DNA of 56,751 bases from the NCBI GenBank assembly GCA_017983775.1, contig JAGOAT010000001.1, positions 1 to 56,751 of the forward strand, in the 5' to 3' direction. The position numbers and the translations under genes are program-made. This document shows positions 3,565 to 51,554 of the stretch, in pieces. The notes under the pieces were generated by a model. That model did not search any database. It saw nothing but the letters and a program-made list of their open reading frames with translations, and was not told the origin of the DNA. Position 1 is the first letter of the stretch. Every line of letters starts with the position of its first letter. This DNA is from Candidatus Saccharimonadota bacterium (lineage in GTDB: Bacteria > Patescibacteriota > Saccharimonadia > JAGOAT01).

Positions 3565-3673
3565 TCCTTCGTATTTATTATGATATTACCCTAGCATAAC
3601 CCCTATTGCAAGCATAAGGATTAATAGTCTACTAGTAGTGAGGGATTACTGATGCAATATAGGAACAAGCCTA

Positions 3674-5396: not shown

Positions 5397-5931
5397 TAAT
5401 TCAATCTATATTGATACCCAGTTACAGCTCAGAGCCCTGAATCCCGATGATTCTCCTGCCCTATTTGCCCTAATAGATACCAATCGAGAATATCTAGCCC
5501 GGTTTCTTCCCTGGGTAGAGGACACTCTTTCTATCAATGACTCTCTAGGATTTATTAATAAATCATTTGAAAACTACGCTAATAATATAGAATACAACTT
5601 CGGGATATTTTACCAGGATAGGTTGGTCGGCATGATATCTATCAGAACAGCCAATCATCTCGGGGCACCCCTAGAGATTGGCTACTGGATAGCTGAAGCA
5701 TACTCCGGCAAAGGTATTACCACTCAAGCTACTGATGCGATTACCAAATATGGCTTTGACCAATTAGGCCTCAGTCAAATCTCAATATTCGCCCAAATAG
5801 ACAATCCTGCCAGCAATAAGATTGCTAAGAAGATTGACTACCAACTGATCGACAGTAAGACAAAAATAGATGGCAAAATTATAAATCATTGGATAAAGTA
5901 TCCACCTCCTGACCAAATCAATCCAAAATAA
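5383..5931 (+). CDS. GNAT family N-acetyltransferase (RimJ/RimL-like)
   Basis: 182 aa. LRALNPDD...YLARFLPW...IGYWIAEAYSGKGITTQA is typical of RimJ/RimL-type GNATs. Confidence 0.75.
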   Translation: MTEISNSIYIDTQLQLRALNPDDSPALFALIDTNREYLARFLPWVEDTLSINDSLGFINKSFENYANNIEYNFGIFYQDRLVGMISIRTANHLGAPLEIGYWIAEAYSGKGITTQATDAITKYGFDQLGLSQISIFAQIDNPASNKIAKKIDYQLIDSKTKIDGKIINHWIKYPPPDQINPK

Positions 5932-6161
5932 TGAGACGTAAATACCAATCCCACCGAAGAAACTACTTCAAGCCTTCAGATAGAGCTATCAAGAGGTCTC
6001 AGACTGCCAAATATTTGTCCGATCGCAAGAGAAAACTCCATCTAGCAGATCAAGTGGTAACGATTACCCTTGCTATTCTTGCCATATTGATTATTCAGTT
6101 CTTGTCATACAAAATGCTTAGTCCTACAGAAAGACTGTTGATCCGACTACTGGGAAGGTAA
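5931..6161 (+). CDS. small basic protein with one TM helix (hypothetical)
   Basis: 76-aa ORF whose start abuts the preceding stop. It has one hydrophobic helix. Confidence 0.3.
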   Translation: MRRKYQSHRRNYFKPSDRAIKRSQTAKYLSDRKRKLHLADQVVTITLAILAILIIQFLSYKMLSPTERLLIRLLGR

Positions 6162-6346
6162 GCTATTCTAAAGTGATAATATAAATATTGTCTCAAATAT
6201 CACCCTCCATGAACTCAAAGAACTTGCCCGAAATATATTCGGCGTATTAGTAAAAGCTGACATTGATATCGCGCAAGAAATTGTAATACTAGATATGCTC
6301 ATACACTACGATGGTGAGCAAGACCTAGTGAGGCAGGGAGTCAAAC

Positions 6347-6940
6347 CTATTTAACTTGTACAATAGCCCGATCGGATCTAGCAGAGTTAGGTTTCCAGAT
6401 CATATACTGATGACCTTCCTCGATTGGTACCTCAAAAACTACTTGACCACTTGCAGTACCTCCACTGACAAGGTCTCCATAACCTAAAGCATTGTCAGCA
6501 AGTAATGATTTATCATCTAATACTTGCCCCTGAGCGGTCTGGATACGAAAGTTAGCCTGACTATAAGACACAACCTTATCACTAGTATTTTCTAATACTA
6601 CATCAGCAACAACATAGGTCTTGCCATCACTAGTTGTAAAGAATTGATCGAGACTTGTAGTATAGTTAACCTTACTTACAGTCATCTTCACCCCATCAAC
6701 TGTCCCAGCCTCACCAACTATTATCTCTACATCTTTTTCTTGCTTATCTACCCTATCCGCAAATCGATACTCTTTCGTCTGACTAGAGCTTTCAGATGAG
6801 CTATTTGATTGACCACCATTACTATTGTTTGACTTACTTCCCCCTGAGCTACCTATTATTGCCAAAACTACTAGCACAACGATTACCGTTAGTACTTTAT
6901 GTCGAGCAAACCAGCTCTTTTTCTTATTTGATTCAGCCAT
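6347..6940 (-). CDS. membrane-anchored DUF4352-like protein
   Basis: N-terminal TM helix, a Ser/Gly/Asn-rich linker, then a beta-rich domain ...VVADVVLENTSDKVVSYSQANFRIQ.... An AGGAGG RBS precedes the ATG. Confidence 0.6.
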   Translation of the reverse strand: MAESNKKKSWFARHKVLTVIVVLVVLAIIGSSGGSKSNNSNGGQSNSSSESSSQTKEYRFADRVDKQEKDVEIIVGEAGTVDGVKMTVSKVNYTTSLDQFFTTSDGKTYVVADVVLENTSDKVVSYSQANFRIQTAQGQVLDDKSLLADNALGYGDLVSGGTASGQVVFEVPIEEGHQYMIWKPNSARSDRAIVQVK

Positions 6941-6985
6941 TTTATGACCTCCTATTAGTTAGTTTATTAATCGGAGGCGATAACC

Positions 6986-7106
6986 AAAAAGGACAGCCTC
7001 GCTATGTTGTCTAGACTAATAGAAGAGATTGAACCCTACTATTTGCGTGGCTGCCCATTTCTTAGTTCAATCCACGCAAGAGGCGTTTTCTTCTATTAAT
7101 CTAGAC
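6986..7106 (-). promoter_or_regulatory. structured 5' leader A (riboswitch-like; long P1, H-type pseudoknot, U-tract)
   Basis: P1 pairs 7009-7026 with 7089-7106 (17 of 18 bp). P2 pairs 7027-7034 with 7065-7072. P3 pairs 7043-7050 with 7072-7079 and is interleaved with P2. The loop GAAATGGGCAG (minus strand) is conserved. A T-run follows on the minus strand. It is a paralogue of the element at 25326-25443. Confidence 0.45.
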
Positions 7107-7284
7107 TCAATCATCTTACCATCTAGTTCAAATAATCTCAAAATCTTACAAATTTGAAGGTTATAAATCAGGTATCTTTATTGAAAAATTCAATACACCT
7201 ATTACCCTTGACATCGGGAGTATAATAAGGTTAAGAGATAAATAAAGATAGAATATTACTAACTAATATGATAGGAGGGATGCT

Positions 7285-7848
7285 ATGGCAAAGAATATTG
7301 CTGAGCAAGCTGGCTATGATCTGAGTGGGATCTTGATGGCCAGAGGAGTATTTACAATTATTTTTGGGGTTATTGCCCTAGTCTGGCCAGGTATGACCTT
7401 GGTCACTCTAGCAATAATCACTGCAATCTGGCTGTTTGTCAGCGGTATTACTGGCGCATTATCCAGTATATTCATGCGAGACAATCACCAATACTGGTTC
7501 CTGAGACTAATCCTCTCACTAATCCAGTTTGGAGTAGGGGCATATCTGGTGCAACGACCTGGAATATCCATCCTAACCTTTATGCTAGCGATTGGACTGA
7601 GTTTCATCGTCGAAGGTGTGATCGAACTAGCCATCTCCTTCACAGATTCAGGCATGGATGGTGGTAGTAGAATGTTAGGAGTACTACTTGGTCTACTAAC
7701 AATGGCTGGAGGAATCATGGTCTGGAGATATCCAGATACTGGTTCACTAGCTTTCATTTGGGTTCTCGGTCTAGTAGCTCTAGTCGGTGGTACTGCCACC
7801 CTCTGGAAAGCTATCGATATGCGTCGAGATCTCAAAAAAGACGAATAA
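7285..7848 (+). CDS. HdeD/DUF308 family membrane protein
   Basis: 187 aa with six hydrophobic helices. RGVFTIIFGVIALVWPG is a typical DUF308 repeat. Confidence 0.65.
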   Translation: MAKNIAEQAGYDLSGILMARGVFTIIFGVIALVWPGMTLVTLAIITAIWLFVSGITGALSSIFMRDNHQYWFLRLILSLIQFGVGAYLVQRPGISILTFMLAIGLSFIVEGVIELAISFTDSGMDGGSRMLGVLLGLLTMAGGIMVWRYPDTGSLAFIWVLGLVALVGGTATLWKAIDMRRDLKKDE

Positions 7849-7878
7849 TTCACTAAGGCTTTATTCACTCCACTCAAA

Positions 7879-7905
7879 AACCCGGCTTATAGAGTCGGGT
7901 TTTTT
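7879..7905. terminator. bidirectional intrinsic terminator between convergent genes
   Basis: aacccggc-ttataga-gtcgggtt is followed by TTTTT and preceded by AAAAA. Confidence 0.55.
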
Positions 7906-8245
7906 ATTGAATAACTGCCCCACCTGCAGACTGCAAATCATCAATTCCACCAAGATTTACGACATCAGTATATCCTTCACGCTCTAGGATCTTTTTAGCA
8001 ATCCCTGCCCTGCCCCCACTCCGGCAGTAGAGATAGGTCTTCTGATTTTTGGCTAGCCTGGGCAAGTCCCCATTAGTCAATCTGGCTAAATCCCAATTGA
8101 TTGCTCCCGTAACATAGCCAGTCCTGAACTCTTCAGGAGTCCTGACATCGATCAATGTCACCTGGCCTTGCCTAGCCTCCTCAACTGCTTGCTTAATCTT
8201 GGCTAAATTACTATCTTTATTGGCCAAAAACCACGTATCTGGCAT
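7904..8245 (-). CDS. rhodanese-like sulfurtransferase domain protein
   Basis: LIDVRTPEEF..G...GAIN and the active-site loop CRSGGRAG. Confidence 0.8.
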   Translation of the reverse strand: MPDTWFLANKDSNLAKIKQAVEEARQGQVTLIDVRTPEEFRTGYVTGAINWDLARLTNGDLPRLAKNQKTYLYCRSGGRAGIAKKILEREGYTDVVNLGGIDDLQSAGGAVIQ

Positions 8246-8277
8246 TCTACGATAAATAATCCATATTAAGCCAAATA

Positions 8278-10893
8278 TTAGATAGACTGAAACTTAAATT
8301 GTCCCGACTGATACTCGATGCCAATCCTGTCCCCTTCTTTAATCTGACCATCAATAATCTCGAGAGCTAAGAGATCTAGAATTTCGGACTGAATTAGCCG
8401 CTTGAGTGGTCTAGCCCCAAAGGCTGGATCATATCCAGCAATAGCTAGTTGTTGCTGAACGCTACCATCAAACTCCAGATGAATATCTCTAGCTTCAGCG
8501 ATTTGCTTAGCAACTTTGTCTAGCTGAACTTTGACAATCTCAGTCATATGCTTCTTGTCTATCCGCTCAAAGATCACGATATCATCAAGTCGATTAAGGA
8601 ACTCTGGCCTAAATTGTCGTTTGGCAATATCAATCACCGCTTCACGCATTTTTTCAAAATCCTTGCCATCCCAATCCTGGATATAACTTGAACCAAGGTT
8701 GCTGGTCATGATGATAATCGTATTGGTAAAATTGACCACCCTACCCTGTCCATCGGTTAACCTTCCGTCATCTAATACTTGCAATAAGATATTGAAAATA
8801 TCTGGACTAGCTTTCTCGATCTCATCAAAAAGAATAATCTGATATGGTCTCCTGCGAACTGCCTCTGTCAACTGCCCACCTTGCTCATAGCCAACATATC
8901 CAGGAGGTGAACCAATCAGTCTAGCTACCGAGTGAGACTCCATGTATTCACTCATATCGATCCGAATCATCGCTCGATCATCATCAAAAAGTTCACTAGC
9001 TAGAGCCTTGGCTAGCTCTGTCTTACCCACACCAGTCGGTCCCATGAAGAGAAATGAACCTATTGGGCGATTCTGATCACCAATACCTGCTCTAGACCTT
9101 CTAACGGCACTAGAAACAGCCTTGACTGCCAACTCTTGACCTATCACACGCTTGGCAATCACCGATTCTAGATTGACCAGCTTATCAGATTCACTCTGAA
9201 GTAGCTTATTGACTGGTATACCTGTCCAACGCGCCACAACTTTGGCAATATCTTCACCTGTAACCTCATCCCTCAATAAGCGTTGGCTATCAGGTATCTG
9301 GGCTAGCTGAGACTGAAGCTGCTTGATCTTGTCTTCAGATTTTGGGATCTTATCAAATCGGATCTCACTCGCTCCGGCCAGATCTCCTCCCCTTTCGGCT
9401 CGTTCTTCATCGACCCTTAACCCCTCAATCTCTTCGGATATCTGATTGATCTGATCGATCAAGTCCTTTTCCTTCCTCCAGTGCCCTTCAAGTACTTTAC
9501 TCTTCTCTCCTAGATCAGCTATCTCTTGATTAATCTCAGATAAGCGAGCCTTGGCACTGGCTGATTTGTCCTTTTTGACTGAAGCTTTCTCAATGCTGAG
9601 CTGAGTAATCTTGCGCTTTTGTCGATCGAGTTCGGTAGGCATCGAATCAATCTCAATCTTGATACTACTCGTAGCTTCATCTATGAGATCAATGGCCTTG
9701 TCGGGCAAGAATCTATCCGGTATATACCTTGCAGATAATGTAGCAGCAGAAACAATTGCATCATCAGTGATTCTGACACCATGATGTACTTCGTACTTAT
9801 CCTGTATACCTCGCAAAATCGCGATAGTATCTTCCTGGCTTGGCTCCCCAACATATACTGGCTGAAATCGTCTCTCAAGTGCACTGTCTTTCTCTACATA
9901 CTGACGATACTCGTTGAGGGTTGTGGCACCAATCATATGAAGCTTTCCCCTGGCAAGTAATGGCTTGAGCATATTACCTGCATCTACTGCACCATCAGCC
10001 TTACCAGCTCCGACAATAGTATGTAATTCATCGACAAAAAGAATGATCTGACCATCACTCTTCTCGACCTCTTTAAGGACAGCCTTAAGCCTTTCCTCAA
10101 ATTCTCCACGATATTTTGCTCCGGCAAGTAAGCTAGATATTTCCAGCGAAATTATTCGTTTATCCCTGAGCGAACTTGGCACATCCCCAGAAATAATCCT
10201 CTGAGCTAATCCTTCGACAATAGCTGTCTTGCCAACGCCTGGCTCACCCAATAACACTGGATTATTCTTAGACCTACGAGACAGCACTTGCATACATCTT
10301 CTGATTTCCTCATCTCGGCCGATTACTGGGTCTAATTGACCAGATCGAGCAAGTTCGGTGATATCTTGACCAAATTTCTCTAGAGTATTAATAGTGCTTT
10401 CTGGTGAATCATTTTCCACTTTCTCTCCTCCTCTCAATTTATCTATTAGATCAATTAATTGATCCGGATCTAGCTCTTTCAGTAAATCAATTCTAGCTTG
10501 CTTGACTACTCCAACCAAAAGATGCTCTGTCGATAGGTGACTATCTCCCAGCCTATTTCGTATTTGATCTGCTTTGCCCAACAAATCAACCATACTCTGA
10601 TCTGCTTTCAAATTCATCAGATCGATTGCCTGAGTCAAACTGGGCAATTGTTCAAGCTGGAAAAGCAGGCTGGTACTTAATCCGATTTGATCTACCTCTA
10701 GCTGTTCAAGAATCAAGCAAAAAATCGTATCGGTTTGTAGACTCAGAGCCCAGATCAAATGATCAGCACTCAGGCTAGGATTCTTGAGCTCCAAAGCCTT
10801 GGAACTCGCTACCTCGAACCCCTCTCGGACTTTCTGTGTCATCATCTCAGGCTTCATATTACTTAGTATTATCCCACCAACCCCTTTTTGCAA
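8278..10893 (-). CDS. clpB: ATP-dependent chaperone ClpB
   Basis: Two AAA+ modules (GEPGVGKT and GPTGVGKT Walker A motifs), a long coiled-coil middle domain and a Clp N domain. The true start is probably ATG at 10845 or 10842 (MMTQKV). Confidence 0.95.
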
Positions 10894-40086: not shown

Positions 40087-41589
40087 ATGCTTACCCTGAC
40101 ATATAGCACTGCCCATATGGGTTTGAATAGTAGAATTATTGACATAGAAACCCATGTCTCGAGTAGGGGTCTGCCCAATATCATTGTAGTTGGACTCGGA
40201 GATAAGGCAATCGAAGAAGCCAGAGAAAGGATCAGCGCTGCAATTCGCAATTCTGGACTCCAGATTCCTCAGAGCCGTATCACGATCAACCTAGCTCCAG
40301 CTGATCTACCCAAGACTGGTTCAAGCTTTGATTTAGCACTAGCTATTGGGATCTTGTCCTGTAGTCAACAAATTACTCCACCCAACAATAAATCTCTATT
40401 CATAGGTGAATTATCCCTGAATGGCAATCTCAGACCGACCAATTCAGTAGTAGCTAGTACTCATCTAGCTATGGAGCAAAAGTTTGATGCCATATATCTA
40501 CCTGCCCAAAATGCTGAGCAAGCCTCCATCATTAACCAGATCAAAATCTATCCGATCACAAGTCTAATCCAGCTCGCTAATCATCTTAATGGTACAGTGC
40601 CAATCAAGCCAATCAGACCCAAGCCACTGAGACTGACAAGAGTAGTTCCAAATCCTGACTTTGCCGAAATCTATGGCCAAAAGGCGGGCAAAAGAGCAAT
40701 GATAGTCGCAATTGCTGGAGGTCACAACATTTTGCTTAATGGCACACCAGGTGCTGGCAAGACAATGCTGGCCAAAGCAGCTAGAGGCATCCTGCCACCA
40801 ATGAATAAATCTGAAATGATGGAAGTCAACAAGATTCATTCTCTGACTCGTGAGCTAAATGACCTAATTAGTGAGAGACCTTTTCGCTCCCCCCACCACA
40901 CCGCTAGCAATATCTCGCTAATCGGCGGGGGCAAGATACCAAAGCCTGGTGAAGTCAGTCTCGCCCACAATGGTATCCTTTTCTTAGATGAGTTACCAGA
41001 ATTCCCCAAAACTGCTCTCGAGGTACTTCGTCAGCCACTGGAAGATGGGTATGTAAGCATCGCTAGAGCTCAAGCAAGCCTGAGCTTTCCGGCTGACTTT
41101 ATCCTGATCGCTACCCAAAACCCTTGTCCTTGTGGCTACTATGGAGATAACCTCAAGGAGTGTATTTGTAACCTTCATCAAATCCAGAGATATCAAAAGA
41201 AGATCTCTGGCCCACTATTGGACAGGATTGATTTATTAGTCAATATTGAGAGAGTACCCCTAGACCAAATGCAAAATCAAACCAATCTAGAGACCTCCGA
41301 AAAACTCAGATCCCAAGTAATCACAGCCCGCAAGCTCCAATCAGATCGCTACAAAGATTGTTCAATCAACCAAAATAGCCAGCTAACCAACAAGCTGATT
41401 AAGCAATTCTGTTCTCTAGATAAAACCTGCCTTGAACTAACCTATCAGGCACAATCGAGACTCAAGCTCACAGGAAGAAGCTATCAGAGGGTTCTTCGGG
41501 TAGCCCGAACAATCGCTGATTTGGATGGTGCTGAAGATATCTCCAGTGATCACCTCCTTGAAGCCCTGAGCTATCGACCAGCTTCTTAG
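40087..41589 (+). CDS. comM: YifB/ComM family Mg-chelatase-like AAA+ ATPase
   Basis: Lon-protease-like N domain (INLAPADLPK.GS.FDLA.A.GIL), Walker A GTPGAGKTMLAK, LFLDELPEF and a Cys cluster C.CGY.......C.C. Confidence 0.9.
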   Translation: MLTLTYSTAHMGLNSRIIDIETHVSSRGLPNIIVVGLGDKAIEEARERISAAIRNSGLQIPQSRITINLAPADLPKTGSSFDLALAIGILSCSQQITPPNNKSLFIGELSLNGNLRPTNSVVASTHLAMEQKFDAIYLPAQNAEQASIINQIKIYPITSLIQLANHLNGTVPIKPIRPKPLRLTRVVPNPDFAEIYGQKAGKRAMIVAIAGGHNILLNGTPGAGKTMLAKAARGILPPMNKSEMMEVNKIHSLTRELNDLISERPFRSPHHTASNISLIGGGKIPKPGEVSLAHNGILFLDELPEFPKTALEVLRQPLEDGYVSIARAQASLSFPADFILIATQNPCPCGYYGDNLKECICNLHQIQRYQKKISGPLLDRIDLLVNIERVPLDQMQNQTNLETSEKLRSQVITARKLQSDRYKDCSINQNSQLTNKLIKQFCSLDKTCLELTYQAQSRLKLTGRSYQRVLRVARTIADLDGAEDISSDHLLEALSYRPAS

Positions 41590-41866
41590 CGAGGCCTGTG
41601 CTGATGAGATCTTCAGCTCCAGACTGCACATTCTGGGCTATAGTTATTGTCTTTTCTCATCTCATCATCTTGACTAACGTTATTATGATATAAACTTGTG
41701 AGGCCAAAACGGATGATTTTTATTCCGTATTGACAAAATGTAACAGCCGCTATGATGTCTAACAGTCCCAAACTAATAGCGGAAGGATTTGTCATCCTCC
41801 GATTGTCCGTAGGCTCCTCTTCTCGTCATCCCCCGAAACCCTCCCCTGTCTCGTCATCCTCCGATT

Positions 41867-41937
41867 GTCCATAGGACAATACGGGGATCCACCTCTACTG
41901 AGATTTGGATAATTAATCGATACGGGATACTGGATCT
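41867..41937 (+). repeat. left copy of the ~71-nt direct repeat flanking the CRISPR-Cas module
   Basis: tgtctcgtcatcctccgattgtccataggacaatacggggatccacctctactgagatttggataattaat. It matches 47494-47566 at roughly 90% identity, by eye. A partial extra copy lies at 41809-41830 and an inverted ctcgtcatc motif at 41981-41995. Confidence 0.85.
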
Positions 41938-42047
41938 CCGATCTTGCCCATCTAGCAACCCGAAGATGACGAGGTGGAGGGCTGGATTTTGGAAGGTGAC
42001 GGAGTGGAGTCAGACCCTAAACTCCACAACCCCATTGAATCTATCAC

Positions 42048-45000
42048 TTAGCGTAATCCTGGATCAAAACCCACTGATGGATAAGTAAGCTGGCTACGGA
42101 TTAGCTCATAAAATGTATCCTGATCCCATTGCTTTTTATCGGATTGTTTCTTGGTGTCTAGATACTCTGATTTTAGTTTTAAATAACCTCGCAATGCTAT
42201 ATTGAGAGCAGCTTGCAAATCTGCATCTGCAATATGTAGACAATCCAAGTATGGACATACAAAGATAGCCGAGTTGGCATTTTGATTGACCCAATCCTTC
42301 GCATCAAGTTCGCTAAAAATCCTATGATAATCCTTATTCTTACCAATAGCGAATTGCATTGCTTGACTATGTATAGGTGGCCTCATAAAAGCATAGATTA
42401 GCTTAAGTTTATTGATCTCCTGACCGCTCACCTGACCAAAATTACCCCCCGTATATGCTAGCAGTTTATTGTTGTCACCAGTGTCAATAGTAGCTAATTC
42501 AGAAAAATCCTCTAGTATTTCAAGCTGATACTGCTCCTTATCTTTGATGTCATATTTGTACCAACGTTTACATTTACCACAAGTCTGACTAGTGCCAGAA
42601 GCAGATACCTCGATTCCTGGCCTTCTTGTCCGTCCCTTTGCAGCTTTACCCCAGTAATGCTCCAGCTTGGCATTGTCCGCACTATTTTGCCCAAAGACAG
42701 ATCCGACTTTGAGTGATTTATAGACTTTGACAATTCGATTTCCACCAGTCTCAAAGGCATTAATATTAAACTCATAGCTAATTCGTGCCTGATACTTCAA
42801 GGCCAAAGCTTCTACTCTAGCTTGATAGCTACTGGCCAATGACTTGCGCAACTCTGCTATATGGGTAGATTGACTAGAAAAAGTTGCAAATCTTTGACGT
42901 TTTTTGAGCTGAGTTACCTGACCGGAGAGAGCCTGGTGTTGATTGTCACGAATAAATCCCTGATCTACAATGACAACATTACCTTCATCACCTACTTCAA
43001 TAACCAACCATGCTAGACCTTTCTCCCCTACATCTACACCAACTATCCGATTGGGGATTTGTTGCTTCTCTAGCCCAAATGCACCCTTTTTGGATTCTTT
43101 GGCCAGGATATTGAAAGGAATACTTGCAAACACCCTCTCCGAACCCTGAATGTTTTCTATATGAAGTCTAGCCTGATCATCCCATCTAATCTTCTTGCGA
43201 GTTTCCGCAATGCTAAAGCCTCCCATAAATGATAATGGATTATGTTTATATTTTGGTTTCTTGATCAACCACCATAAGAATTGTTTCTGATATCTACTAC
43301 CTCCTATACGGTACAGTGCAGAATTCTTTGCTGGCTTATAAGGCTTAGCAACGGGCAAACTACCTGATTTCGGTTTTGGAAATTGTTTGAGATCGTCAAA
43401 GCCACCCTTAAGCTCAGCACCCATCAATCCACCATGTTGCTCTATGTAATATTTTGTACTAGTCACTGGATCTTTTGGATCAAATACTAGCTTGATTTGT
43501 GCTCCATTGACTTCCTGAATAGCAGATCTCTCTATGTATTCTCTCTTTGAGACCAAACTCAACAACCCCTTGAGCTCAGCTAGCAACATTGTCTGCAAGA
43601 AGGTATTTAGGCTGTGATTATTGAGCCTATAGTCCCTAAGAGCTAGGTATATGTCTTGCAGTTTATTAATAGGCTCTACATTGTCTACCTCAAACTGATC
43701 AACCTTACTAATCAATATACTAGATAATATCTTGATCAATTCAATATAGTCTATTGTAGAATCTAGTTGTCTAATGACCGTTACTGGATTCCTAATCTCC
43801 TCTAGGGTCTCTTCTAATATCTCAATTATTGGGAACCTGCTAGCTGGGGTATCTTGATAGCTGATCAATTCCCTCTTTTGCCTAGCAAAAGGTGAATTGT
43901 AAAACACCTTATCTTCGATATTGAGGGTTTCCATATTAAGTCTCAGCTCAACAAGCGCCAATATCTTGAGAGATTTGTGTGATCTCAGCGATACTGCCCA
44001 TTTCCTTAGCCTCTCCAAATCTTTTGCTTGCAAATAAGCATCTGATTGGTATTTGATAATAGGACTAATAGCACTAAGAAGCTTGGTGAATTGACTGATC
44101 AAACCTTGATAATTATCTTTATAATTTACGACTTTGATAAACTTCTCTCGCGCTGACTCTCCAAGCAAGTTTGGTATCCTAGGAAGTTGCTTGGTGAGAT
44201 CTCTAAAATCAGTCTTGAAATCCAAACCCAACCCTGAGTTGGCCTGTAAATGGGCATTTAGGTCTCTCCTAATCCTAGGTAGTAACAATTGAGCACCTTC
44301 TGTCAATAATGGATCAAGGTACTGATCTGCGTGATAGGTATCTAGCAAAGACTGATAGATATTGATCAGATCATTAATACCTATCCCCAAATCAGGGTCT
44401 TGATCAACCAACTTATCTTGATACTTCGTCAGGTTATCTAGGTGTTTGCTGGCTACAGTGACTATCTCCTCTTCTTGCCTCAGCTTATTACTATAAAATG
44501 AACTCATCTTACTAGCGAAATCAACCCGATAGTCACCCCAACTATTAGCTAGCTTGGGCTGGCCAATATTTTTGGCCAACTCAGCTAGTCTTAGCAATCT
44601 AGCTCGCACTATTTCCCTTTCCCGATCTGTGTATTTGAGATACACACTCATGTCATCCAGGTACTGATTGATCACTTCAGCCCCTTGAGAAGCCAGATCA
44701 TTAAAGACTTGATTGAGGAAATTACTGAAACCACTTGCACTATTGGCTAACCCGATCAACTCCTCGATATCTTTTGCATTTAGACGATCTGTCTTGTCTA
44801 CCAAGTCCAAGTGTAACCTCCGAATAATCTGTTCAAACAGCTCAGTCTTACTATCCGCCTCCAGTTCTTCCCAGCTAGGCAAAATCAAAAATGAGATGGA
44901 TTTTCTGGGACTAACGGGTAGTTGTGGGTCTTTGATGCCAAATAATTCTAGCTTGAATAAGGTCTTTTGATTATCCCCAGTAATCTTATTGATTTGCTTG

Positions 45001-45530
45001 GCAAACTGATGAGCTATCTCTAGCAATCTGTCTGAAGGTCTCTCTTGAGCAGAAATTGTAGCATAACGCTTGAGAAAAATCTCTACCAATTCTGTCTCAG
45101 ATCTAGCATTTAATCTACTAGAGGTCAGTATATTTTGCTCCCAACCAGTATAGTTGAGCTCTTGTTTTAGTGCTGGATCTGGAATCTGATTAAATAAGCT
45201 TTCTAGATAAGAATCATTATCTAGAATTATTTCTCCAAGCTTACCCAGTCTAGCTGTCGAGTACATAAAAACTCCGCCCATCGCCAAAGTCTCCAGCCAA
45301 AACTCTAAGATTGAAGACCTCTGAGCTAAATCAATATAATCACTTAATTGCAACCTACCATAAAGTCCTCGGTAGTCACTAGCTATATTCTTAGTCAATG
45401 CTGGTATGTCATCGCCATAGAGTGGAAACTTGATTGTCCGAATTGCGGTACCATTTTCTGCCCAGGACAATCTAGAATCATGCAAGCGATACCCTGTCAA
45501 TAATCTTTGTGATTTGTTGCGTTTTTTCAT
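42048..45530 (-). CDS. cas12d: single large CRISPR effector, RuvC-only (type V; CasY/Cas12d-like)
   Basis: 1160-aa ORF ending 118 nt from the array. RuvC-I is IVGVDVGEKGLAW (D833, nt 43032-43034). RuvC-II is ISYEFNINAFE (E920, nt 42771-42773). The Zn ribbon is CGKC (984-987) plus CPYLDC (1092-1097). RuvC-III is HIADADLQAALNIALRG (D1102/D1104, nt 42219-42227). There is no HNH motif, and the N-terminal ~800 aa have no motif I recognise. The locus has cas1 only, 25-nt repeats and 18-19-nt spacers. Confidence 0.85.
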   Translation of the reverse strand: MKKRNKSQRLLTGYRLHDSRLSWAENGTAIRTIKFPLYGDDIPALTKNIASDYRGLYGRLQLSDYIDLAQRSSILEFWLETLAMGGVFMYSTARLGKLGEIILDNDSYLESLFNQIPDPALKQELNYTGWEQNILTSSRLNARSETELVEIFLKRYATISAQERPSDRLLEIAHQFAKQINKITGDNQKTLFKLELFGIKDPQLPVSPRKSISFLILPSWEELEADSKTELFEQIIRRLHLDLVDKTDRLNAKDIEELIGLANSASGFSNFLNQVFNDLASQGAEVINQYLDDMSVYLKYTDREREIVRARLLRLAELAKNIGQPKLANSWGDYRVDFASKMSSFYSNKLRQEEEIVTVASKHLDNLTKYQDKLVDQDPDLGIGINDLINIYQSLLDTYHADQYLDPLLTEGAQLLLPRIRRDLNAHLQANSGLGLDFKTDFRDLTKQLPRIPNLLGESAREKFIKVVNYKDNYQGLISQFTKLLSAISPIIKYQSDAYLQAKDLERLRKWAVSLRSHKSLKILALVELRLNMETLNIEDKVFYNSPFARQKRELISYQDTPASRFPIIEILEETLEEIRNPVTVIRQLDSTIDYIELIKILSSILISKVDQFEVDNVEPINKLQDIYLALRDYRLNNHSLNTFLQTMLLAELKGLLSLVSKREYIERSAIQEVNGAQIKLVFDPKDPVTSTKYYIEQHGGLMGAELKGGFDDLKQFPKPKSGSLPVAKPYKPAKNSALYRIGGSRYQKQFLWWLIKKPKYKHNPLSFMGGFSIAETRKKIRWDDQARLHIENIQGSERVFASIPFNILAKESKKGAFGLEKQQIPNRIVGVDVGEKGLAWLVIEVGDEGNVVIVDQGFIRDNQHQALSGQVTQLKKRQRFATFSSQSTHIAELRKSLASSYQARVEALALKYQARISYEFNINAFETGGNRIVKVYKSLKVGSVFGQNSADNAKLEHYWGKAAKGRTRRPGIEVSASGTSQTCGKCKRWYKYDIKDKEQYQLEILEDFSELATIDTGDNNKLLAYTGGNFGQVSGQEINKLKLIYAFMRPPIHSQAMQFAIGKNKDYHRIFSELDAKDWVNQNANSAIFVCPYLDCLHIADADLQAALNIALRGYLKLKSEYLDTKKQSDKKQWDQDTFYELIRSQLTYPSVGFDPGLR

Positions 45531-45576
45531 CTTAATTGATACTTAATCTATATGTTATATCTGTAAATCGCGAGAT

Positions 45577-45620
45577 AGTTGGAAAGGCAAGGTAGCGAAT
45601 CAAACGCTACGGAACCAACT
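45577..45620 (-). ncRNA. candidate scout/tracr-like RNA core (stem-loop with a short anti-repeat)
   Basis: Minus strand reads AGUUGG-UUCC-GUAGCG-UUUGAUU-CGCUAC-CUUGCCUUU-CCAACU. The outer 6-bp and inner 6-bp stems are perfect. GCCUUU in the internal loop is complementary to AAAGGC at the spacer-proximal end of the repeat. The transcript ends are unknown. Confidence 0.35.
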
Positions 45621-45647
45621 TTAATTAAAACACTGGGGAGGTGACTA

Positions 45648-46194
45648 ATCTTTTTCCCCATATTTTTCGGGGCTCTCCGCTGCCGCCTCGGCCTTTTTCC
45701 CCATATTTTTCGGGGTGCTTCAGTCCGCTAGGGGCCTTTTTCCCCATATTTTTCGGGGGGCTAAATTACTTGCAGTAGCCTTTTTCCCCATATTTTTCGG
45801 GGCAACAAAAGGATTGGCAGTGCCTTTTTCCCCATATTTTTCGGGGGACATTGCTGTCCCCTCCTGCCTTTTTCCCCATATTTTTCGGGGGCCATGGGGC
45901 AGGTTAGTGCCTTTTTCCCCATATTTTTCGGGGTAGACGCTTACTGGGCGAAGCCTTTTTCCCCATATTTTTCGGGGAGGTCAGTAATAACTTCTTGCCT
46001 TTTTCCCCATATTTTTCGGGGACAGCACGCACGCGTATGTGCCTTTTTCCCCATATTTTTCGGGGTTGTAAATGTAGCTCCTTGCCTTTTTCCCCATATT
46101 TTTCGGGGATGGTAAAATATAGTCAAGCCTTTTTCCCCATATTTTTCGGGGAGCCAGAAAACCTGGATCGCCTTTTTCCCCATATTTTTCGGGG
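45648..46194 (-). CRISPR. CRISPR array with 13 repeats and 12 spacers
   Basis: The plus-strand repeat is GCCTTTTTCCCCATATTTTTCGGGG (25 nt), present as 12 identical copies starting at 45691, 45734, 45778, 45822, 45866, 45909, 45953, 45997, 46041, 46084, 46127 and 46170. A degenerate terminal copy lies at 45648-45672 (ATC in place of GCC). Spacers are 18-19 nt and all unique. The strand is inferred from the degenerate repeat at the left end and the AT-rich leader at the right. The crRNA-sense repeat is CCCCGAAAAATATGGGGAAAAAGGC. Confidence 0.97.
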
Positions 46195-46303
46195 AGATCC
46201 CGCGAATTTACAGATATAAATTTACAAAAAACTATTGTTTTTCTGTTTATATATTAGCAGTAAGTTGATAATTTTCAAGCCAAATTCACGACAATGCATT
46301 ATA
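46195..46303 (-). promoter_or_regulatory. putative CRISPR leader / cas1-array intergenic control region
   Basis: AT-rich sequence next to the non-degenerate end of the array. It contains the right arm of the array-flanking inverted repeat (46197-46219). Confidence 0.4.
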
Positions 46304-47377
46304 ATGGGACAAAATAGTATGAAAATCAAATCCCCAACCAAACAAGCGCATCATAACAAATCTCCCAATAAATCTCGACGTGTACCCGTATGGATTCCTT
46401 ACCCTTCAAGTATCAGCATAGACAGGCAAGCAAAATTGATTACCGAATACAACGGTGGTGATCTCGAAGCTAGCCTAGATGAGATATCTAGCATCATGAT
46501 CTATGGTGAGACAAAAACTAAGATCGAGATATCTACATTAGAAAAGATTGCCCGTAAAGGAATACCCATCATTATCCATAGGCGCAACATGCATCAATCT
46601 ATCATTATTACTGGCTCTGGCAGACCAGACCCTGATGACACCCTAACCAAGCAAATACTATTCCGCACAAACCAACACAAGAGAAACCATATTGCCCGAT
46701 CTTTGCTCAATGCCAAATTTATTTCATCCAGATGTCTAGTATCAGAAACCATCAAACTTGATAAAGATCTAACTCTTGCAGAAATGAGACAGATTGAAGC
46801 CCAATTGGCTAGAGAATATTGGTCAAACTTCTTTGATCAATTATCACCTGATGCTAGTCTTGCTAGAAGGAATAACAACCCATACAGCAAAGCACTGGAT
46901 GCCAGTAGCAAGTTTCTGACTGGAATAATACTACGCTGGGTAAGCTACCATCACCTCTCTCCTTTCCATGGTTTTCTACACGAACCAACTAGCTACCCTG
47001 CATTGATTTATGATTTAATTGAACCCTATCGACCTATATTTGAATATAAGATTCTCCAGAGTTGGCAAAATGTCATCAGTCCAGACCCCTTAAAACTTAC
47101 AGGTATAGCTATTGATACCATAAAAGATAGTCTCAATGAACAAGTCTACGTACCTCTTACTCGGCAAATAGTCACTAGACAGGAGCTACTTCATGGAATA
47201 GTGCTATCACTCAAGCATTATTTGCTAGGTAATCAATCTCGTCTACTGATTCCTCTGGAGGGTAAACCCAACGGAGGAAGACCTCCCAAGGTAAATTTTA
47301 GACTCTATGGTAGGCAAGCTGGCAAGACTGACTTCTGGCAACAAGCCAGCAAGGTAGCAAAAAATTCTCCCACCTGA
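46304..47377 (+). CDS. cas1: CRISPR-associated endonuclease Cas1
   Basis: ...FHGFLHEPTSYPALIYDLIEPYRPIFE... is the Cas1 His / acidic-residue signature (YDLIEPYRP at 47009-47035), with an upstream EAQLAREYW glutamate region. The start is set at ATG 46304 (alternative ATG at 46319). The track ORF begins at TTG 46235. Confidence 0.9.
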   Translation: MGQNSMKIKSPTKQAHHNKSPNKSRRVPVWIPYPSSISIDRQAKLITEYNGGDLEASLDEISSIMIYGETKTKIEISTLEKIARKGIPIIIHRRNMHQSIIITGSGRPDPDDTLTKQILFRTNQHKRNHIARSLLNAKFISSRCLVSETIKLDKDLTLAEMRQIEAQLAREYWSNFFDQLSPDASLARRNNNPYSKALDASSKFLTGIILRWVSYHHLSPFHGFLHEPTSYPALIYDLIEPYRPIFEYKILQSWQNVISPDPLKLTGIAIDTIKDSLNEQVYVPLTRQIVTRQELLHGIVLSLKHYLLGNQSRLLIPLEGKPNGGRPPKVNFRLYGRQAGKTDFWQQASKVAKNSPT

Positions 47378-47493
47378 CTAAATATTTGCTCAAGGCATCG
47401 ACTCTGACCCCTATCAAGATATCACTTTCTTAAAGTAGCTGTTGCTTAGATTTGCGGGATAACCCTTTGCCCTGCTAGTCCTTTGTCTCGTCA

Positions 47494-47566
47494 TCCTCCG
47501 ATTGTCCATAGGACAATACGGGGGATCCACCCCTACTGATATTTGATAATAATTATTTTTGTTTTG
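47494..47566 (+). repeat. right copy of the ~71-nt direct repeat flanking the CRISPR-Cas module
   Basis: tgtctcgtcatcctccgattgtccataggacaatacgggggatccacccctactgatatttgataataattat. Confidence 0.85.
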
Positions 47567-47640
47567 GTTTTTTAATAACACAAAATTTCAGTCAAGTACT
47601 GAAGATGACAGGAAGGTATAAACCCCTCAATAAGCTCCCC

Positions 47641-47994
47641 CTACAAGGTAAAGAATTCGATTGCCTGGCCACCCAGATCAGTCTTCTCTAGAACGAAGTA
47701 GATAGCCAGATAAATCACCCCTACTATCATCACCATCATCAATGACCGTTTAATCTCACGCGTAACATAGTGCAATCTCTGATCAATGTAGACCTTATCA
47801 TGCTCTGCCTTGGCTGATAGTTTAATCTTCCCTGATCCCTGAACAGGTTTGACTCCATCTGTAGACCTACCCTTGGCTATACTCGGCTGAATAGCTTGAT
47901 CAGAATCCTTGGCAATAACCTTAGGTTTATTACTAAGCTTTTGCTTCTTCTTGATGTGAGATTTTGGCATAGCTACATCATAACACAAATCCAT
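47641..47994 (-). CDS. hypothetical basic protein with C-terminal TM helix
   Basis: 117-aa ORF with a Lys-rich N-terminal half and one TM helix. Confidence 0.4.
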   Translation of the reverse strand: MDLCYDVAMPKSHIKKKQKLSNKPKVIAKDSDQAIQPSIAKGRSTDGVKPVQGSGKIKLSAKAEHDKVYIDQRLHYVTREIKRSLMMVMIVGVIYLAIYFVLEKTDLGGQAIEFFTL

Positions 47995-48013
47995 ATGCTA
48001 TGATTAATAGTAC

Positions 48014-48487
48014 ATGGAAAGAATTGTTCTAGGTATAGCACTTGTGAGCTTATTGCTATCAGTATTTGCAATCAAAAAATTACTTGATCTCAGAGCTATT
48101 TATAATAAGATCTTTACTCTTAATCAGTCAGGTGATCAGACGACAAGCCTCAAGGATCAGCTAGAGCAGTACAGTAGTGAAGTCAACCAGTGCCTAGACC
48201 AACTCGACCAATTGGCTAGCTATACTGCCAAACTCCACAAACAACTCCAGACTAGCTCTCAAAAGATAGGCCTAATTCGCTTCAACCCTTTCCAAGATAC
48301 TGGTGGCGATCAAAGCTTTTGCTTGACTATTCTCGATGCCAAAGACACTGGATACTGTATATCTAGCATCCATACTAGATCAGGTACTAGGGTGTATTGC
48401 AAAGAAATCCAAAAAGGCAAGAGTCTCCATCATCTTTCAGAAGAAGAACAAGCTTCTATTGCCAAAGCAATCAGTGTAAAATATTAG
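48014..48487 (+). CDS. DUF4446 family protein
   Basis: N-terminal TM helix, a coiled coil, then GLIRFNPFQDTGGDQSFCLTILDAKDTGYCISSIHTRSGTRVYCKEI. Confidence 0.7.
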   Translation: MERIVLGIALVSLLLSVFAIKKLLDLRAIYNKIFTLNQSGDQTTSLKDQLEQYSSEVNQCLDQLDQLASYTAKLHKQLQTSSQKIGLIRFNPFQDTGGDQSFCLTILDAKDTGYCISSIHTRSGTRVYCKEIQKGKSLHHLSEEEQASIAKAISVKY

Positions 48488-49946: not shown

Positions 49947-51554
49947 CTAAAAAGTTAATTTTGTCATCACCTGACTAGGGTAAATCAAAGCCAAATCTCC
50001 ATCACCCAATTCCTCAATGTCAGACCATTCTCCAAGCTGGTTTTTTATATCCTCAACACCGCAATCACTGAGTGGTCCCCTGATTAACTCCTTGCCAACA
50101 ATGATTGATGTTTTCTTGTCCCGATCTTCTATCTTATCAAATACTCCTTTGTCAAAAAATAAATTGACCTTGTATAGCTTATTGTCCCGACAATCAAGTG
50201 GGAAAATCACCTTATCTGAATCCCTACCAAAAAAATATTCTGCAGGGATGGCCGTGCTCATATCAGCATATCCATAGCTAAAATCACTACCAACAATATA
50301 ATCGTATCGTCTCTCTAGGACATCAATTCCCTCCAATCTATTATTACTAACCCCAGCCAGCGACCGAATTAATCCGTAACTATTAACCAATATTACGACT
50401 GTAAATATTGCTATCAAGCTCTGCTTTGGCACTGCCTCCAAGGTAGCTATCAACATAATCAATCCCGGAAATAGCATGATCAAATATCTTGATGTTCCAG
50501 GCAAAAGAGGCTGTCCACTCGCAAAATATATAGCTACAGGAAAAACCAATGCCAATACTATCAATACCATCAGCTTCCTATTATGGCTATACAGTTTGTA
50601 TCTGATATATAGCCATACCGTCATAGCAAATAAATATAATGTGAAGACATTATTGAGACGCCGTCTCCACCTGCCCATTTCCTCGGTACCTGAAAAAATA
50701 TCAAGGATATTCCTAATGGTTTGCTTTATTGCAGGGCTAAGATTATTTAAGACATCCAAGCTTTGATTCAATGATCCAACCTTGAAAAAAACTATACCAA
50801 AAAATTTTCTTGCAAAAAGCTGAATAGCTAAACTCAACAAGAAGGCTATTAGTATCACGATCAAGACCTTGATCGCTGATTTTTTATTCCGTCTATCAAG
50901 GAAGAGGCTATCTAGTATTATATAGGCAGCTAGTATTGTACCCGATACATAGATCTGCATAGGATCTGAGAAAAATACCAGAGCTAAGTAGATTACAAAA
51001 GGAATCAAGGATACTAGAGACTTACCCTCATAACACCTAATCCCGAGATAGATAATACCAAGACCAGCAACAATCTCTAGGTTTCTTGAATTCGAAAATT
51101 GTATCCAAAACACCGATCCTGCTATAGTAGATATCCATAGAAACATCATATTAAAATACATCCCAGGATCAATACTAAACTTTTTTAAGATTCTATAGAG
51201 GATATAGTAGATGCCGATTATGGTTAAGATATTGATCAACAATGTAGACAAGATCAAAAATAACGTTGGATCTAGATTGAATATCTCCGCTGGCATATAA
51301 AATACAAAAATCTTGAATATATAGTTTGTAGGTGCAGTTAAGACACCCTCAGTATAGCCACTAAGCCAATGCCTAGCTAATAATTGTTGCCCTATCAAAT
51401 CAAAGTTTATAGGCTGAGAAAGAAATCTAAAGATTGTCCAAATTGAAACTATTGTACAGCTTAAAAAAATTGTCACTATAGTAGACATATTTCGCCTTAC
51501 AGTATGCCAAAAATTTGCTAACAATCTTGAATTCATAACCCAGGATTGTCCCAT
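49947..51554 (-). CDS. polytopic membrane protein, possibly a GT-C-type glycosyltransferase
   Basis: 535 aa with about 12 hydrophobic helices followed by a soluble C-terminal domain. The assignment rests on architecture only. Confidence 0.4.
   Translation of the reverse strand: MGQSWVMNSRLLANFWHTVRRNMSTIVTIFLSCTIVSIWTIFRFLSQPINFDLIGQQLLARHWLSGYTEGVLTAPTNYIFKIFVFYMPAEIFNLDPTLFLILSTLLINILTIIGIYYILYRILKKFSIDPGMYFNMMFLWISTIAGSVFWIQFSNSRNLEIVAGLGIIYLGIRCYEGKSLVSLIPFVIYLALVFFSDPMQIYVSGTILAAYIILDSLFLDRRNKKSAIKVLIVILIAFLLSLAIQLFARKFFGIVFFKVGSLNQSLDVLNNLSPAIKQTIRNILDIFSGTEEMGRWRRRLNNVFTLYLFAMTVWLYIRYKLYSHNRKLMVLIVLALVFPVAIYFASGQPLLPGTSRYLIMLFPGLIMLIATLEAVPKQSLIAIFTVVILVNSYGLIRSLAGVSNNRLEGIDVLERRYDYIVGSDFSYGYADMSTAIPAEYFFGRDSDKVIFPLDCRDNKLYKVNLFFDKGVFDKIEDRDKKTSIIVGKELIRGPLSDCGVEDIKNQLGEWSDIEELGDGDLALIYPSQVMTKLTF

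What the first reader, a model, noticed from the sequence alone, without database searches (positions are those of the whole stretch)
45648..46194. CRISPR array with unusually short 18-19-nt spacers and an inferable transcription direction
There are 12 identical 25-nt repeats plus one degenerate terminal repeat at 45648-45672. The 12 unique spacers are 18 nt (7 spacers) or 19 nt (5 spacers), or 17-18 nt if the repeat is counted as 26 nt. Most CRISPR systems use spacers of about 28-38 nt. Such short guides imply a different ruler in both acquisition and targeting.

The degenerate repeat sits at the effector-proximal (left) end and the AT-rich flank at the cas1-proximal (right) end. This points to minus-strand transcription, giving the crRNA repeat CCCCGAAAAATATGGGGAAAAAGGC followed by the spacer. 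CCCC and GGGG can pair within that repeat.

Several spacers (for example ctctccgctgccgcctcg and acagcacgcacgcgtatgt) are much more GC-rich than this genome, which suggests foreign targets.
Basis: seen in the sequence. Interest (0 to 1): 0.8.

Follow-up and report, generated by a model that had tools for sequence, protein, structure and literature searches.

The report
Ordinary type V-D (Cas12d) CRISPR array
This is a real CRISPR array, but its 18-19-base spacers are the published hallmark of the Cas12d (CasY) type V-D immune systems of tiny CPR bacteria, and this very locus is already annotated as Cas12d in GenBank, so it is an ordinary member of a known kind.

Summary
Positions 45648-46194 hold 12 identical 25-nt repeats, one degenerate end repeat and 12 unique spacers (6 of 18 nt and 6 of 19 nt, not 7 and 5).

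It is the array of a complete minimal type V-D CRISPR-Cas locus:
- cas12d at 42048-45530(-): NCBIfam Cas12d equivalog, 1024 bits, RuvC residues intact.
- A scoutRNA at 45577-45620(-).
- The array, read on the minus strand.
- An AT-rich leader.
- A divergent cas1 at 46319-47377(+). There is no cas2 or cas4.

The exact proteins are GenBank MBP6005326.1 (Cas12d) and MBP6005327.1 (Cas1), from a Candidatus Saccharibacteria MAG.

Short spacers are the family rule. In 24 related Cas12d loci every repeat is 25 nt and ends in AAGGC, and 239 of 258 spacers are 18-19 nt.

The minus-strand repeat matches the KbCas12d (CasY.1) crRNA repeat at 18 of 25 positions in the same register. An independent assembly shares the nine cas12d-proximal spacers and differs only at the cas1 end.

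No convincing protospacer or PAM was found.

One side observation may be new. An inverted repeat brackets array plus scoutRNA here and in 10 of 12 related loci with the same layout.

The parts
42048..45530 (-). cas12d (casY) effector gene, 1160 aa
   Evidence: NCBIfam NF033951 Cas12d equivalog: E=0, 1024 bits against a cut-off of 250, full-length match. D833, E920 and D1104 (RuvC) and C984/C987/C1092/C1097 are invariant or nearly invariant in a 16-sequence alignment. The exact sequence is GenBank MBP6005326.1, 'type V CRISPR-associated protein Cas12d [Candidatus Saccharibacteria bacterium]'. The nearest other cluster representatives are only 38-40% identical.
45555..45576 (-). Inverted-repeat arm B (ATCTCGCGATTTACAGATATAA). 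It lies directly 3' of the scoutRNA, about 25 nt before the cas12d ATG.
   Evidence: It matches leader arm A in inverted orientation with one substitution and one single-base gap. The predicted RNA duplex is -28.7 kcal/mol against -6.5 +/- 2.3 for shuffles. Its function is unknown.
45577..45620 (-). scoutRNA gene (AGUUGGUUCCGUAGCGUUUGAUUCGCUACCUUGCCUUUCCAACU): outer stem, UUCC, inner hairpin, then the invariant GCCUU that is complementary to the repeat's 3' AAGGC
   Evidence: It has the same architecture as the experimentally used KbCas12d scoutRNA. In a hand-made structural alignment of 17 loci, 99.6% of cells are paired and 16 of 17 pairs change on both sides. A descriptor scan finds the same element just upstream of cas12d, on the cas12d strand, in most related loci. 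The centroid fold gives both stems, z = -3.1. The descriptor alone is weak, with 0.79 chance hits per random window; position and homology carry the argument.
45621..45647 (-). Trailer segment between the last (degenerate) repeat and the scoutRNA
   Evidence: It has no match of 10 nt or more anywhere else in the window.
45648..45672 (-). Degenerate terminal (trailer) repeat CCCCGAAAAAUAUGGGGAAAAAGAU. It has lost the last two bases of the AAGGC anchor.
   Evidence: It is identical in four independent assemblies. Degenerate 3'-end repeats sit at the same end of the array in six relatives.
45648..46194 (-). CRISPR array: 13 repeats of 25 nt and 12 spacers of 18 nt (6) or 19 nt (6). crRNA sense is the minus strand.
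   Evidence: Orientation.
46195..46318 (-). Leader / divergent promoter region between array and cas1. It contains inverted-repeat arm A (46196-46218, ATCCCGCGAATTTACAGATATAA on the + strand) and minus-strand promoter-like sites at 46278->46251 and 46325->46298.
   Evidence: consensus matches only. Its repeat-proximal 105-124 bases are 100% identical in the four other assemblies that cover them. A motif of the form TTTAYA(A)TCTGT and a CT dinucleotide before the first repeat recur in relatives. New-spacer polarity is shown.
46319..47377 (+). cas1, 352 aa, the only adaptation gene
   Evidence: Pfam Cas_Cas1 E=2.4e-20. The motifs IEAQ, FLHEP and DLIEPYRP align with the corresponding motifs of a solved Cas1, 4wj0; I take these to be the catalytic motifs from general knowledge of Cas1. 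The 352-aa product is GenBank MBP6005327.1 and is found identical in four other assemblies. No cas2- or cas4-like ORF was found between 41500 and 48100.

Best explanation
This is the array of a complete, apparently active, minimal type V-D (Cas12d/CasY) CRISPR-Cas system in a Candidatus Saccharibacteria (CPR) genome.

Shown here:
- The gene order is cas1(+), then on the minus strand the leader, 13 x 25-nt repeats, a degenerate trailer repeat, the scoutRNA and cas12d.
- New spacers enter at the cas1-proximal leader end.
- The repeat's invariant 3' AAGGC is complementary to the scoutRNA's invariant GCCUU.
- The conserved RuvC and Cas1 motif residues are present.

Inferred from published work on KbCas12d/CasY.1, Cas12d15 and type V-C Cas1:
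- Cas1 acts without Cas2 as a compact integrase whose geometry sets the roughly 18-bp spacer and 25-bp repeat.
- The array is transcribed on the minus strand from the leader.
- Each crRNA (5' repeat, 3' 18-19-nt guide) docks through AAGGC onto the scoutRNA, and both load into Cas12d.
- The RuvC site of Cas12d cuts double-stranded DNA next to a 5'-TA/TG PAM.
- The last repeat ends in AAGAU and so cannot dock. It should give no functional guide.
For: - Effector: NF033951 Cas12d equivalog at 1024 bits; catalytic and zinc residues conserved; GenBank already names it Cas12d.
- Adaptation: cas1 only.
- Array.
- Family rule: 24 related Cas12d arrays have 25-nt repeats ending in AAGGC on the cas12d strand. 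Their spacers are 16 nt (3), 17 nt (11), 18 nt (168), 19 nt (71) and 20 nt (5).
- crRNA strand: 18 of 25 positions identical to the KbCas12d crRNA repeat, in register.
- scoutRNA.
- Polarity and activity: L040 shares nine trailer-side spacers and differs at the leader end. Two other samples with about 99.8% identical cas12d DNA carry entirely different spacers.
- Literature: V-D has 17-19-nt spacers, cas1 plus cas12d, a scoutRNA and a TA/TG or TR PAM (bioRxiv 10.1101/2023.12.12.571249; PMC7889808; PMC11127173). V-C and V-D lack cas2, and V-C Cas1 integrates alone as a tetramer into a 25-bp repeat (PMC6977970, citing Wright 2019).
Against: - No transcript data are available. Promoters are consensus matches only.
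- No convincing protospacer was found, so the PAM and the nature of the targets are unverified.
- The scoutRNA alignment was fitted by hand to the structure, so the pairing percentage is biased upward.
- Here the scoutRNA lies downstream of the array, whereas the KbCas12d paper places it upstream of the array.
- Cas1-alone integration has been demonstrated for V-C, not V-D.
- This Cas12d is at most 40% identical to any other cluster representative, and no Cas12d structure matched by sequence.
Confidence: 0.93

Rival explanations
1. The locus is a decaying relic: the array and genes persist but no longer acquire spacers or interfere.
For: The terminal repeat is degenerate. No protospacers were found in seven viral scans and one metagenome spacer scan.
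Against: Twelve repeats are perfectly identical. The RuvC and Cas1 motif residues are intact. Near-identical strains differ in spacer content, with leader-end differences in L040 and complete replacement in L038 and L039. That implies recent acquisition.
Confidence: 0.05
2. The array is read from the plus strand, or its leader is at the cas12d end. The crRNA would then be the reverse complement of what the reader proposed.
For: Two strains with about 99.8% identical cas12d share none of the cas12d-proximal spacers. Taken alone, that could suggest the cas12d end is the variable end.
Against: L040 shares nine cas12d-proximal spacers and differs only at the cas1 end. The repeat matches the KbCas12d crRNA in minus sense. 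All related arrays are on the cas12d strand, with a conserved leader upstream and degenerate repeats downstream. The complementary GCCUU of the scoutRNA is on the same strand.
Confidence: 0.02
3. The locus belongs to another short-spacer subtype (type V-C / Cas12c or an unnamed relative) rather than V-D.
For: V-C also has cas1 only, repeats of about 25 bp, short spacers and a scoutRNA (PMC6977970, PMC9522604). There is a weak Cas12c model hit of 41 bits.
Against: The Cas12d model scores 1024 bits over its full length, against 41 bits for Cas12c where the cut-off is 250. The scoutRNA architecture matches KbCas12d.
Confidence: 0.01

Closest known systems
KbCas12d / CasY.1 (Katanobacteria) type V-D system
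   Same: It has cas1 plus cas12d only. The repeat is 25-26 nt and matches ours at 18 of 25 positions in register. Spacers are 17-18 nt. The scoutRNA has an outer stem, UUCC, an inner hairpin and GCCUU. The RuvC Asp and Glu shown to be catalytic there (D827, E913) most likely correspond to D833 and E920 here, which are invariant in the family alignment; KbCas12d was not aligned directly.
   Different: Identity to other Cas12d cluster representatives here is 25-40% (KbCas12d itself was not aligned). That paper places the scoutRNA upstream of the array. Here, and in most relatives with this layout, it lies between the array trailer and cas12d. The host is Saccharibacteria rather than Katanobacteria. 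This ortholog has not been tested experimentally.
Cas12d loci in GTDB genomes (L005-L037) and JGI locus L001-L003
   Same: The module is the same: divergent cas1, leader, 25-nt repeats ending in AAGGC, spacers of 18-19 nt, and a scoutRNA immediately upstream of cas12d.
   Different: The closest relative (L001, P0002) has only 38% identical Cas12d and 59% identical Cas1. A subgroup (L013, L014, L022, L024, L027, L029, L037) has the array downstream of cas12d instead.
Type V-C (Cas12c) with the Cas1 mini-integrase
   Same: It has no cas2, a repeat of about 25 bp, short spacers, and a scoutRNA/tracrRNA that docks on 3-5 nt at the repeat's 3' end (PMC6977970, PMC9522604).
   Different: The effector is a different family: the Cas12c model scores 41 bits against 1024 for Cas12d. 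Cas1-alone integration and RNA processing were demonstrated for V-C, not V-D.

Membership tests
Type V-D CRISPR-Cas (Cas12d/CasY) | Cas12d effector of about 1100-1250 aa matching the family model | tested here: met
   NF033951 equivalog at 1024 bits (cut-off 250), covering residues 11-1118 against model positions 1-1179 of 1180. There are 144 cluster representatives with E<1e-30. GenBank names it Cas12d.
Type V-D CRISPR-Cas (Cas12d/CasY) | Intact single RuvC active site (D, E, D) and C-terminal zinc ribbon | tested here: met
   D833, E920, D1104, C984, C987 and C1092 are invariant and C1097 is nearly invariant in 16 sequences. The mutants D827A and E913A are dead in KbCas12d.
Type V-D CRISPR-Cas (Cas12d/CasY) | Adaptation module of cas1 alone (no cas2, no cas4) | tested here: met
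   Cas1 is at 46319-47377. No other cas-like ORF of 40 aa or more was recognised in 41500-48100; neighbours of 60 aa or more were scanned against Pfam and NCBIfam. The rest of the 56-kb window was not scanned systematically for cas2.
Type V-D CRISPR-Cas (Cas12d/CasY) | Repeats of 25-26 nt and spacers of 17-19 nt | tested here: met
   The repeat is 25 nt and the spacers are 18/19 nt. The same holds in 24 related arrays. The literature gives 17-19 nt.
Type V-D CRISPR-Cas (Cas12d/CasY) | scoutRNA with a conserved 5-nt sequence complementary to the repeat | tested here: met
   The element lies at 45577-45620(-). GCCUU is invariant in 17 of 17 scoutRNAs and AAGGC is invariant in 23 of 23 repeats. 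Expression was not tested.
Type V-D CRISPR-Cas (Cas12d/CasY) | crRNA- and scoutRNA-dependent dsDNA cleavage next to a 5'-TA/TG (TR) PAM | not testable with these tools
   No reliable protospacers were found. One 18-nt viral hit has a TA flank, but the hit rate is at chance level. Metagenome hits have CG and TC flanks.
Type V-C CRISPR-Cas (Cas12c) | Cas12c effector matching the family model | tested here: not met
   NF033950 scores 41 bits against a cut-off of 250, over the RuvC region only.

The most novel reading that the evidence does not exclude
The array and scoutRNA are bracketed by a conserved inverted repeat. The last 20-40 nt of the leader is an inverted copy of the sequence directly after the scoutRNA. 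This holds in the window and in 10 of 12 related loci with this layout, although the arm sequences differ between loci.

The most novel reading is that the pre-crRNA and scoutRNA are made as one transcript whose two ends pair into a long-range stem. That stem could act as a processing or stability clamp, like the stems flanking rRNA precursors, or as a switch coupled to cas12d expression. No such feature is mentioned in the papers I could read (the primary V-D papers were not available).
Probability: 0.15. Interest if true: 0.45.

Novelty: already known. Interest (0 to 1): 0.14.

Why it matters
As found, it matters little. It adds one more uncharacterised Cas12d ortholog, at most 40% identical to other cluster representatives, from an oral/environmental-type CPR lineage (Saccharibacteria). 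It confirms that the published V-D rules hold across about 25 further loci: 25-nt repeat, 18-19-nt spacer, cas1 only, and the scoutRNA GCCUU:AAGGC dock.

The practical value is a ready-made crRNA and scoutRNA design for this ortholog, and natural evidence of leader-end acquisition by a Cas2-less Cas1.

The inverted repeat around array plus scoutRNA is the only element that might be new biology.

Tried and rejected
1. Rfam found nothing at gathering thresholds over the whole window, and only sub-threshold noise over 45400-46400. No scoutRNA family or matching CRISPR-DR family exists there.
2. A PDB sequence search with Cas12d gave no hit.
3. An exact scan of JGI metagenome contigs for the repeat gave 0 hits.
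4. Protospacer hunts:
   - Seven spacers were scanned against IMG/VR. Six gave 0 hits. AAGGAGCTACATTTACAA hit three contigs that share no common flanking sequence, one of them with a TA flank, and no other spacer hit those loci at two mismatches or fewer.
   - ACATASGCGTGCGTGCTGT hit two independent sites in 60% GC contigs. The one whose genes I examined (L050) looks chromosomal, carrying UvrB and a glycosyltransferase. The flanks are CG and TC, and the number of hits is what chance predicts.
   - No self-target exists in the window at three mismatches or fewer, apart from one 3-mismatch hit that I take to be chance.
5. The plain MAFFT alignment of scoutRNAs gave no RNAalifold structure. I replaced it with a hand-made structural alignment, so the pairing statistics are biased. 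I gave up on building a covariance model because the junction lengths vary too much for MAFFT to keep register.
6. The search for related loci failed with 16 sequences because they were too divergent. It worked with 5.
7. Harrington 2020 and Wright 2019 are not in the paper library. Their content is cited through secondary sources.
8. Tests on the inverted repeat:
   - The transition bias between arms was 14 G-U-compatible against 7, which is not decisive.
   - No inverted repeat exists in loci with downstream arrays.
9. The weak RVT_1 hit in Cas12d (E=0.009, below cut-off) was dismissed.

Full report

Yes. Reading 45400-46500 and running two repeat finders shows a regular array with a period of 43-44 nt. 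An exact search finds GCCTTTTTCCCCATATTTTTCGGGG 12 times between 45691 and 46194 and nowhere else in the 56,751-base window on either strand. A 13th copy at 45648-45672 differs in its first two plus-strand bases, AT instead of GC.

The 12 spacers are all different. Six are 18 nt and six are 19 nt. The bases adjoining the repeat are not conserved, so the unit is 25 nt rather than 26.

An independent assembly of another sequencing run (L040, SRR23867504) contains the same array with nine identical-order spacers. This rules out an assembly artefact.

**2. What is it?**

The flanking genes identify it.
- The 1160-aa ORF at 42048-45530(-) matches the NCBIfam Cas12d/CasY equivalog model end to end, at 1024 bits against a cut-off of 250. 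The Cas12c and Cas12e models score only 41 and 24 bits.
- The ORF on the other side is Cas1 (Pfam E=2.4e-20). The IEAQ, FLHEP and DLIEPYRP motifs align to a solved Cas1. Its real start is the ATG at 46319, because that 352-aa product is on record in four other assemblies.
- No cas2- or cas4-like ORF lies nearby.
- An exact-sequence look-up shows both proteins are already in GenBank as MBP6005326.1, [quoted passage not shown], and MBP6005327.1 (Cas1). They sit on a 56,751-bp contig, which is this window.

**3. Are short spacers unusual for this system?**

No. The literature describes type V-D as cas1 plus cas12d plus an array with 17-19-nt spacers and 26-nt repeats, found in CPR bacteria. It requires a scoutRNA and has a TA/TG (TR) PAM (bioRxiv 10.1101/2023.12.12.571249; PMC7889808; PMC11127173). 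Types V-C and V-D lack cas2, and a V-C Cas1 integrates spacers alone as a tetramer into a 25-bp repeat (PMC6977970).

I checked this directly. A scan of GTDB genomes with a Cas12d alignment returned 33 loci, most of them labelled as Patescibacteria/CPR lineages. In the 24 related arrays I could parse (23 from that scan plus JGI locus L001), every repeat is 25 nt and lies on the cas12d strand. The 258 spacers are 16 nt (3), 17 nt (11), 18 nt (168), 19 nt (71) and 20 nt (5). All 23 aligned repeats end in an invariant AAGGC.

**4. Strand and polarity.**

- The minus-strand repeat CCCCGAAAAAUAUGGGGAAAAAGGC has the same length and register as the KbCas12d/CasY.1 crRNA repeat used in cleavage assays (cuccgaaaguaucggggauaaaggc plus an 18-nt guide). 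Eighteen of 25 positions are identical.
- In every related locus, cas1 diverges from one end of the array. That end carries a conserved leader: a motif of the form TTTAYA(A)TCTGT in the Saccharibacteria-like group, and a CT dinucleotide before the first repeat in almost all loci. Degenerate repeats occur at the opposite end.
- L040 shares the nine cas12d-proximal spacers with the window, one of them with a single SNP. It differs only at the cas1 end, where the window has three spacers and L040 has one different spacer. This is the classic signature of leader-end acquisition.
- Minus-strand promoter-like hexamers lie in the leader. These are consensus matches only.

Two further samples (L038, L039) have about 99.8% identical cas12d DNA and the same trailer repeat and scoutRNA, but share no spacers. 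So whole arrays turn over between strains, and the system looks active.

**5.

Between the trailer repeat and cas12d, at 45577-45620(-), lies AGUUGGUUCCGUAGCGUUUGAUUCGCUACCUUGCCUUUCCAACU. Its layout is an outer stem, UUCC, an inner hairpin, a short linker (2-4 nt), GCCUU, and the closing strand. That is the layout of the KbCas12d scoutRNA (aaaggguuuccaguuuuuaacuaaacuuuagccuuccacccuuu).

The same element sits in the corresponding place in the related loci. In a hand-made structural alignment of 17 sequences, 99.6% of cells are paired and 16 of 17 pairs show changes on both sides. Sliding the partner drops pairing to 35-45%. Because I fitted the alignment to the helices, the pairing percentage is inflated. 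The recurrence of two helices around invariant UUCC and GCCUU at a fixed genomic position is the real evidence.

The centroid fold of the 44-mer gives both stems (z = -3.1). A simple descriptor finds 0.79 chance matches per random window. A match falling in this 117-nt gap on the correct strand has a prior of about 0.001.

GCCUU is complementary to the invariant AAGGC at the 3' end of the repeat. This fits the short "dock/anchor" described for scoutRNAs (PMC9522604). The degenerate trailer repeat ends in AAGAU and so loses the dock. That gives a simple reason why it would not yield a guide. This last point is inference.

**6. Mechanism, with shown and inferred steps separated.**

Shown:
- the parts list and its order;
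- intact motif residues;
- leader-end spacer gain;
- the complementarity between repeat and scoutRNA;
- the family-wide ruler of 25 nt plus about 18 nt.

Inferred from KbCas12d, Cas12d15 and V-C studies:
- Cas1 alone integrates spacers of about 18 bp.
- Minus-strand pre-crRNA is made from the leader.
- crRNA and scoutRNA load into Cas12d.
- RuvC cuts dsDNA next to 5'-TR.

Not determined: the PAM and the targets. Seven spacers scanned against IMG/VR and one against JGI metagenomes gave only chance-level hits. Spacer GC (48.6%) exceeds the genome's (40.1%), with P about 0.002. That is compatible with foreign DNA but says nothing specific.

**7. Side observation.**

The array-plus-scoutRNA module is bracketed by an inverted repeat. 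Leader arm A at 46196-46218 (ATCCCGCGAATTTACAGATATAA) matches arm B at 45555-45576(-) (ATCTCGCGATTTACAGATATAA), which starts right after the scoutRNA.

The same relation holds in 11 of 13 loci with this gene order, counting the window. The z-scores are 3.7-13.8 against shuffles, and the arm sequences differ between loci. It is absent from the seven loci whose array lies downstream of cas12d.

The two arms could pair as RNA (-28.7 kcal/mol against -6.5 +/- 2.3 for shuffles). The mismatch pattern is 14 G-U-compatible transitions against 7 incompatible, plus 12 transversions and 15 gaps. That does not separate an RNA stem from duplicated outward-facing promoters or operators for cas1 and cas12d. 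I leave it unexplained.

**8. Verdict.**

The finding is correct as an observation and largely correct as an interpretation. It describes the textbook signature of a known subtype, in a locus that GenBank already labels Cas12d. Novelty: already known. Interest: low.

Noticed in passing
window 46196-46218 (+) and 45555-45576 (-); also L001, L005, L006, L009, L010, L015, L017, L019, L028, L032: A 22-23-nt inverted repeat brackets the array plus scoutRNA. The end of the leader next to the first repeat is an inverted copy of the sequence right after the scoutRNA. This recurs in 11 of 13 V-D loci with this gene order (counting the window), with locus-specific arm sequences. It is absent when the array lies downstream of cas12d. 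It could be an RNA clamp, a duplicated promoter/operator, or a DNA-level feature.
   Followed up: partly
L038 (SRR28595016), L039 (SRR32548962), L040 (SRR23867504) versus window 45648-46194: Four assemblies carry the same cas12d (identical protein, about 99.8% identical DNA), scoutRNA and trailer repeat. L040 shares nine spacers with the window, whereas L038 and L039 share none with each other or with the window. The sequence just beyond the cas12d stop also diverges in L038 and L039.
   Followed up: partly
L004 (ENA ERZ25067264 contig), array 3138-3916, cas1 4199-5233, cas4-like 5240-5926, effector 6001-9768: A distant relative (1255 aa, 27% identity over 42% of the query) sits next to Cas1 AND a PDDEXK/Cas4-like gene. 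Its array of 25-nt repeats (AACCGAATCTAACAGGGTAAAAGGC in the reverse sense) also ends in AAGGC, with 18-19-nt spacers. The array is on the strand opposite the effector. A scoutRNA-like element lies at 4105-4143(-). This may be a Cas4-bearing variant of the V-D-like systems.
   Followed up: no
L001 5190-5260: In the closest relative's locus, a second strong hairpin followed by AAAAGCCUUCC lies between the last repeat and the scoutRNA. That locus therefore has two GCCUU-bearing elements.
   Followed up: no
L044 (IMGVR_UViG_3300017913_002256) 805-822 (-): The 18-nt spacer AAGGAGCTACATTTACAA (window 46066-46083) matches a viral contig exactly, with a 5' TA flank, which is the published V-D PAM. 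Two other viral hits have AC flanks. The hit rate is at chance level, so this is unconfirmed.
   Followed up: partly
L047, L049, L050 (JGI metagenome contigs), e.g. L050 5721-5739: The L040 variant of one spacer (ACATAGGCGTGCGTGCTGT) matches three homologous 60% GC contigs from different metagenomes, with a CG 5' flank. In L050, the only one whose genes were checked, the match lies in an unannotated ORF near uvrB. It is probably chance. GC-rich hosts of Saccharibacteria (Actinomycetota) would be worth checking.
   Followed up: partly
L007, L010, L012, L013, L017, L026, L034, L036: Several Cas12d loci come from MAGs labelled as non-CPR taxa: Actinomycetota, Gammaproteobacteria, Burkholderiales, Leptonemataceae, Bdellovibrionales and Propionibacteriaceae. 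This is either binning contamination by epibiont DNA or a wider host range for type V-D than usually stated.
   Followed up: no
window 1-56751; 49947-51554 (-); 47641-47994 (-): No Rfam family, including tRNA, reaches threshold anywhere in the 56.7-kb window. A 535-aa ORF and a 117-aa ORF with a hydrophobic C-terminus next to the CRISPR locus have no Pfam or NCBIfam match.
   Followed up: no
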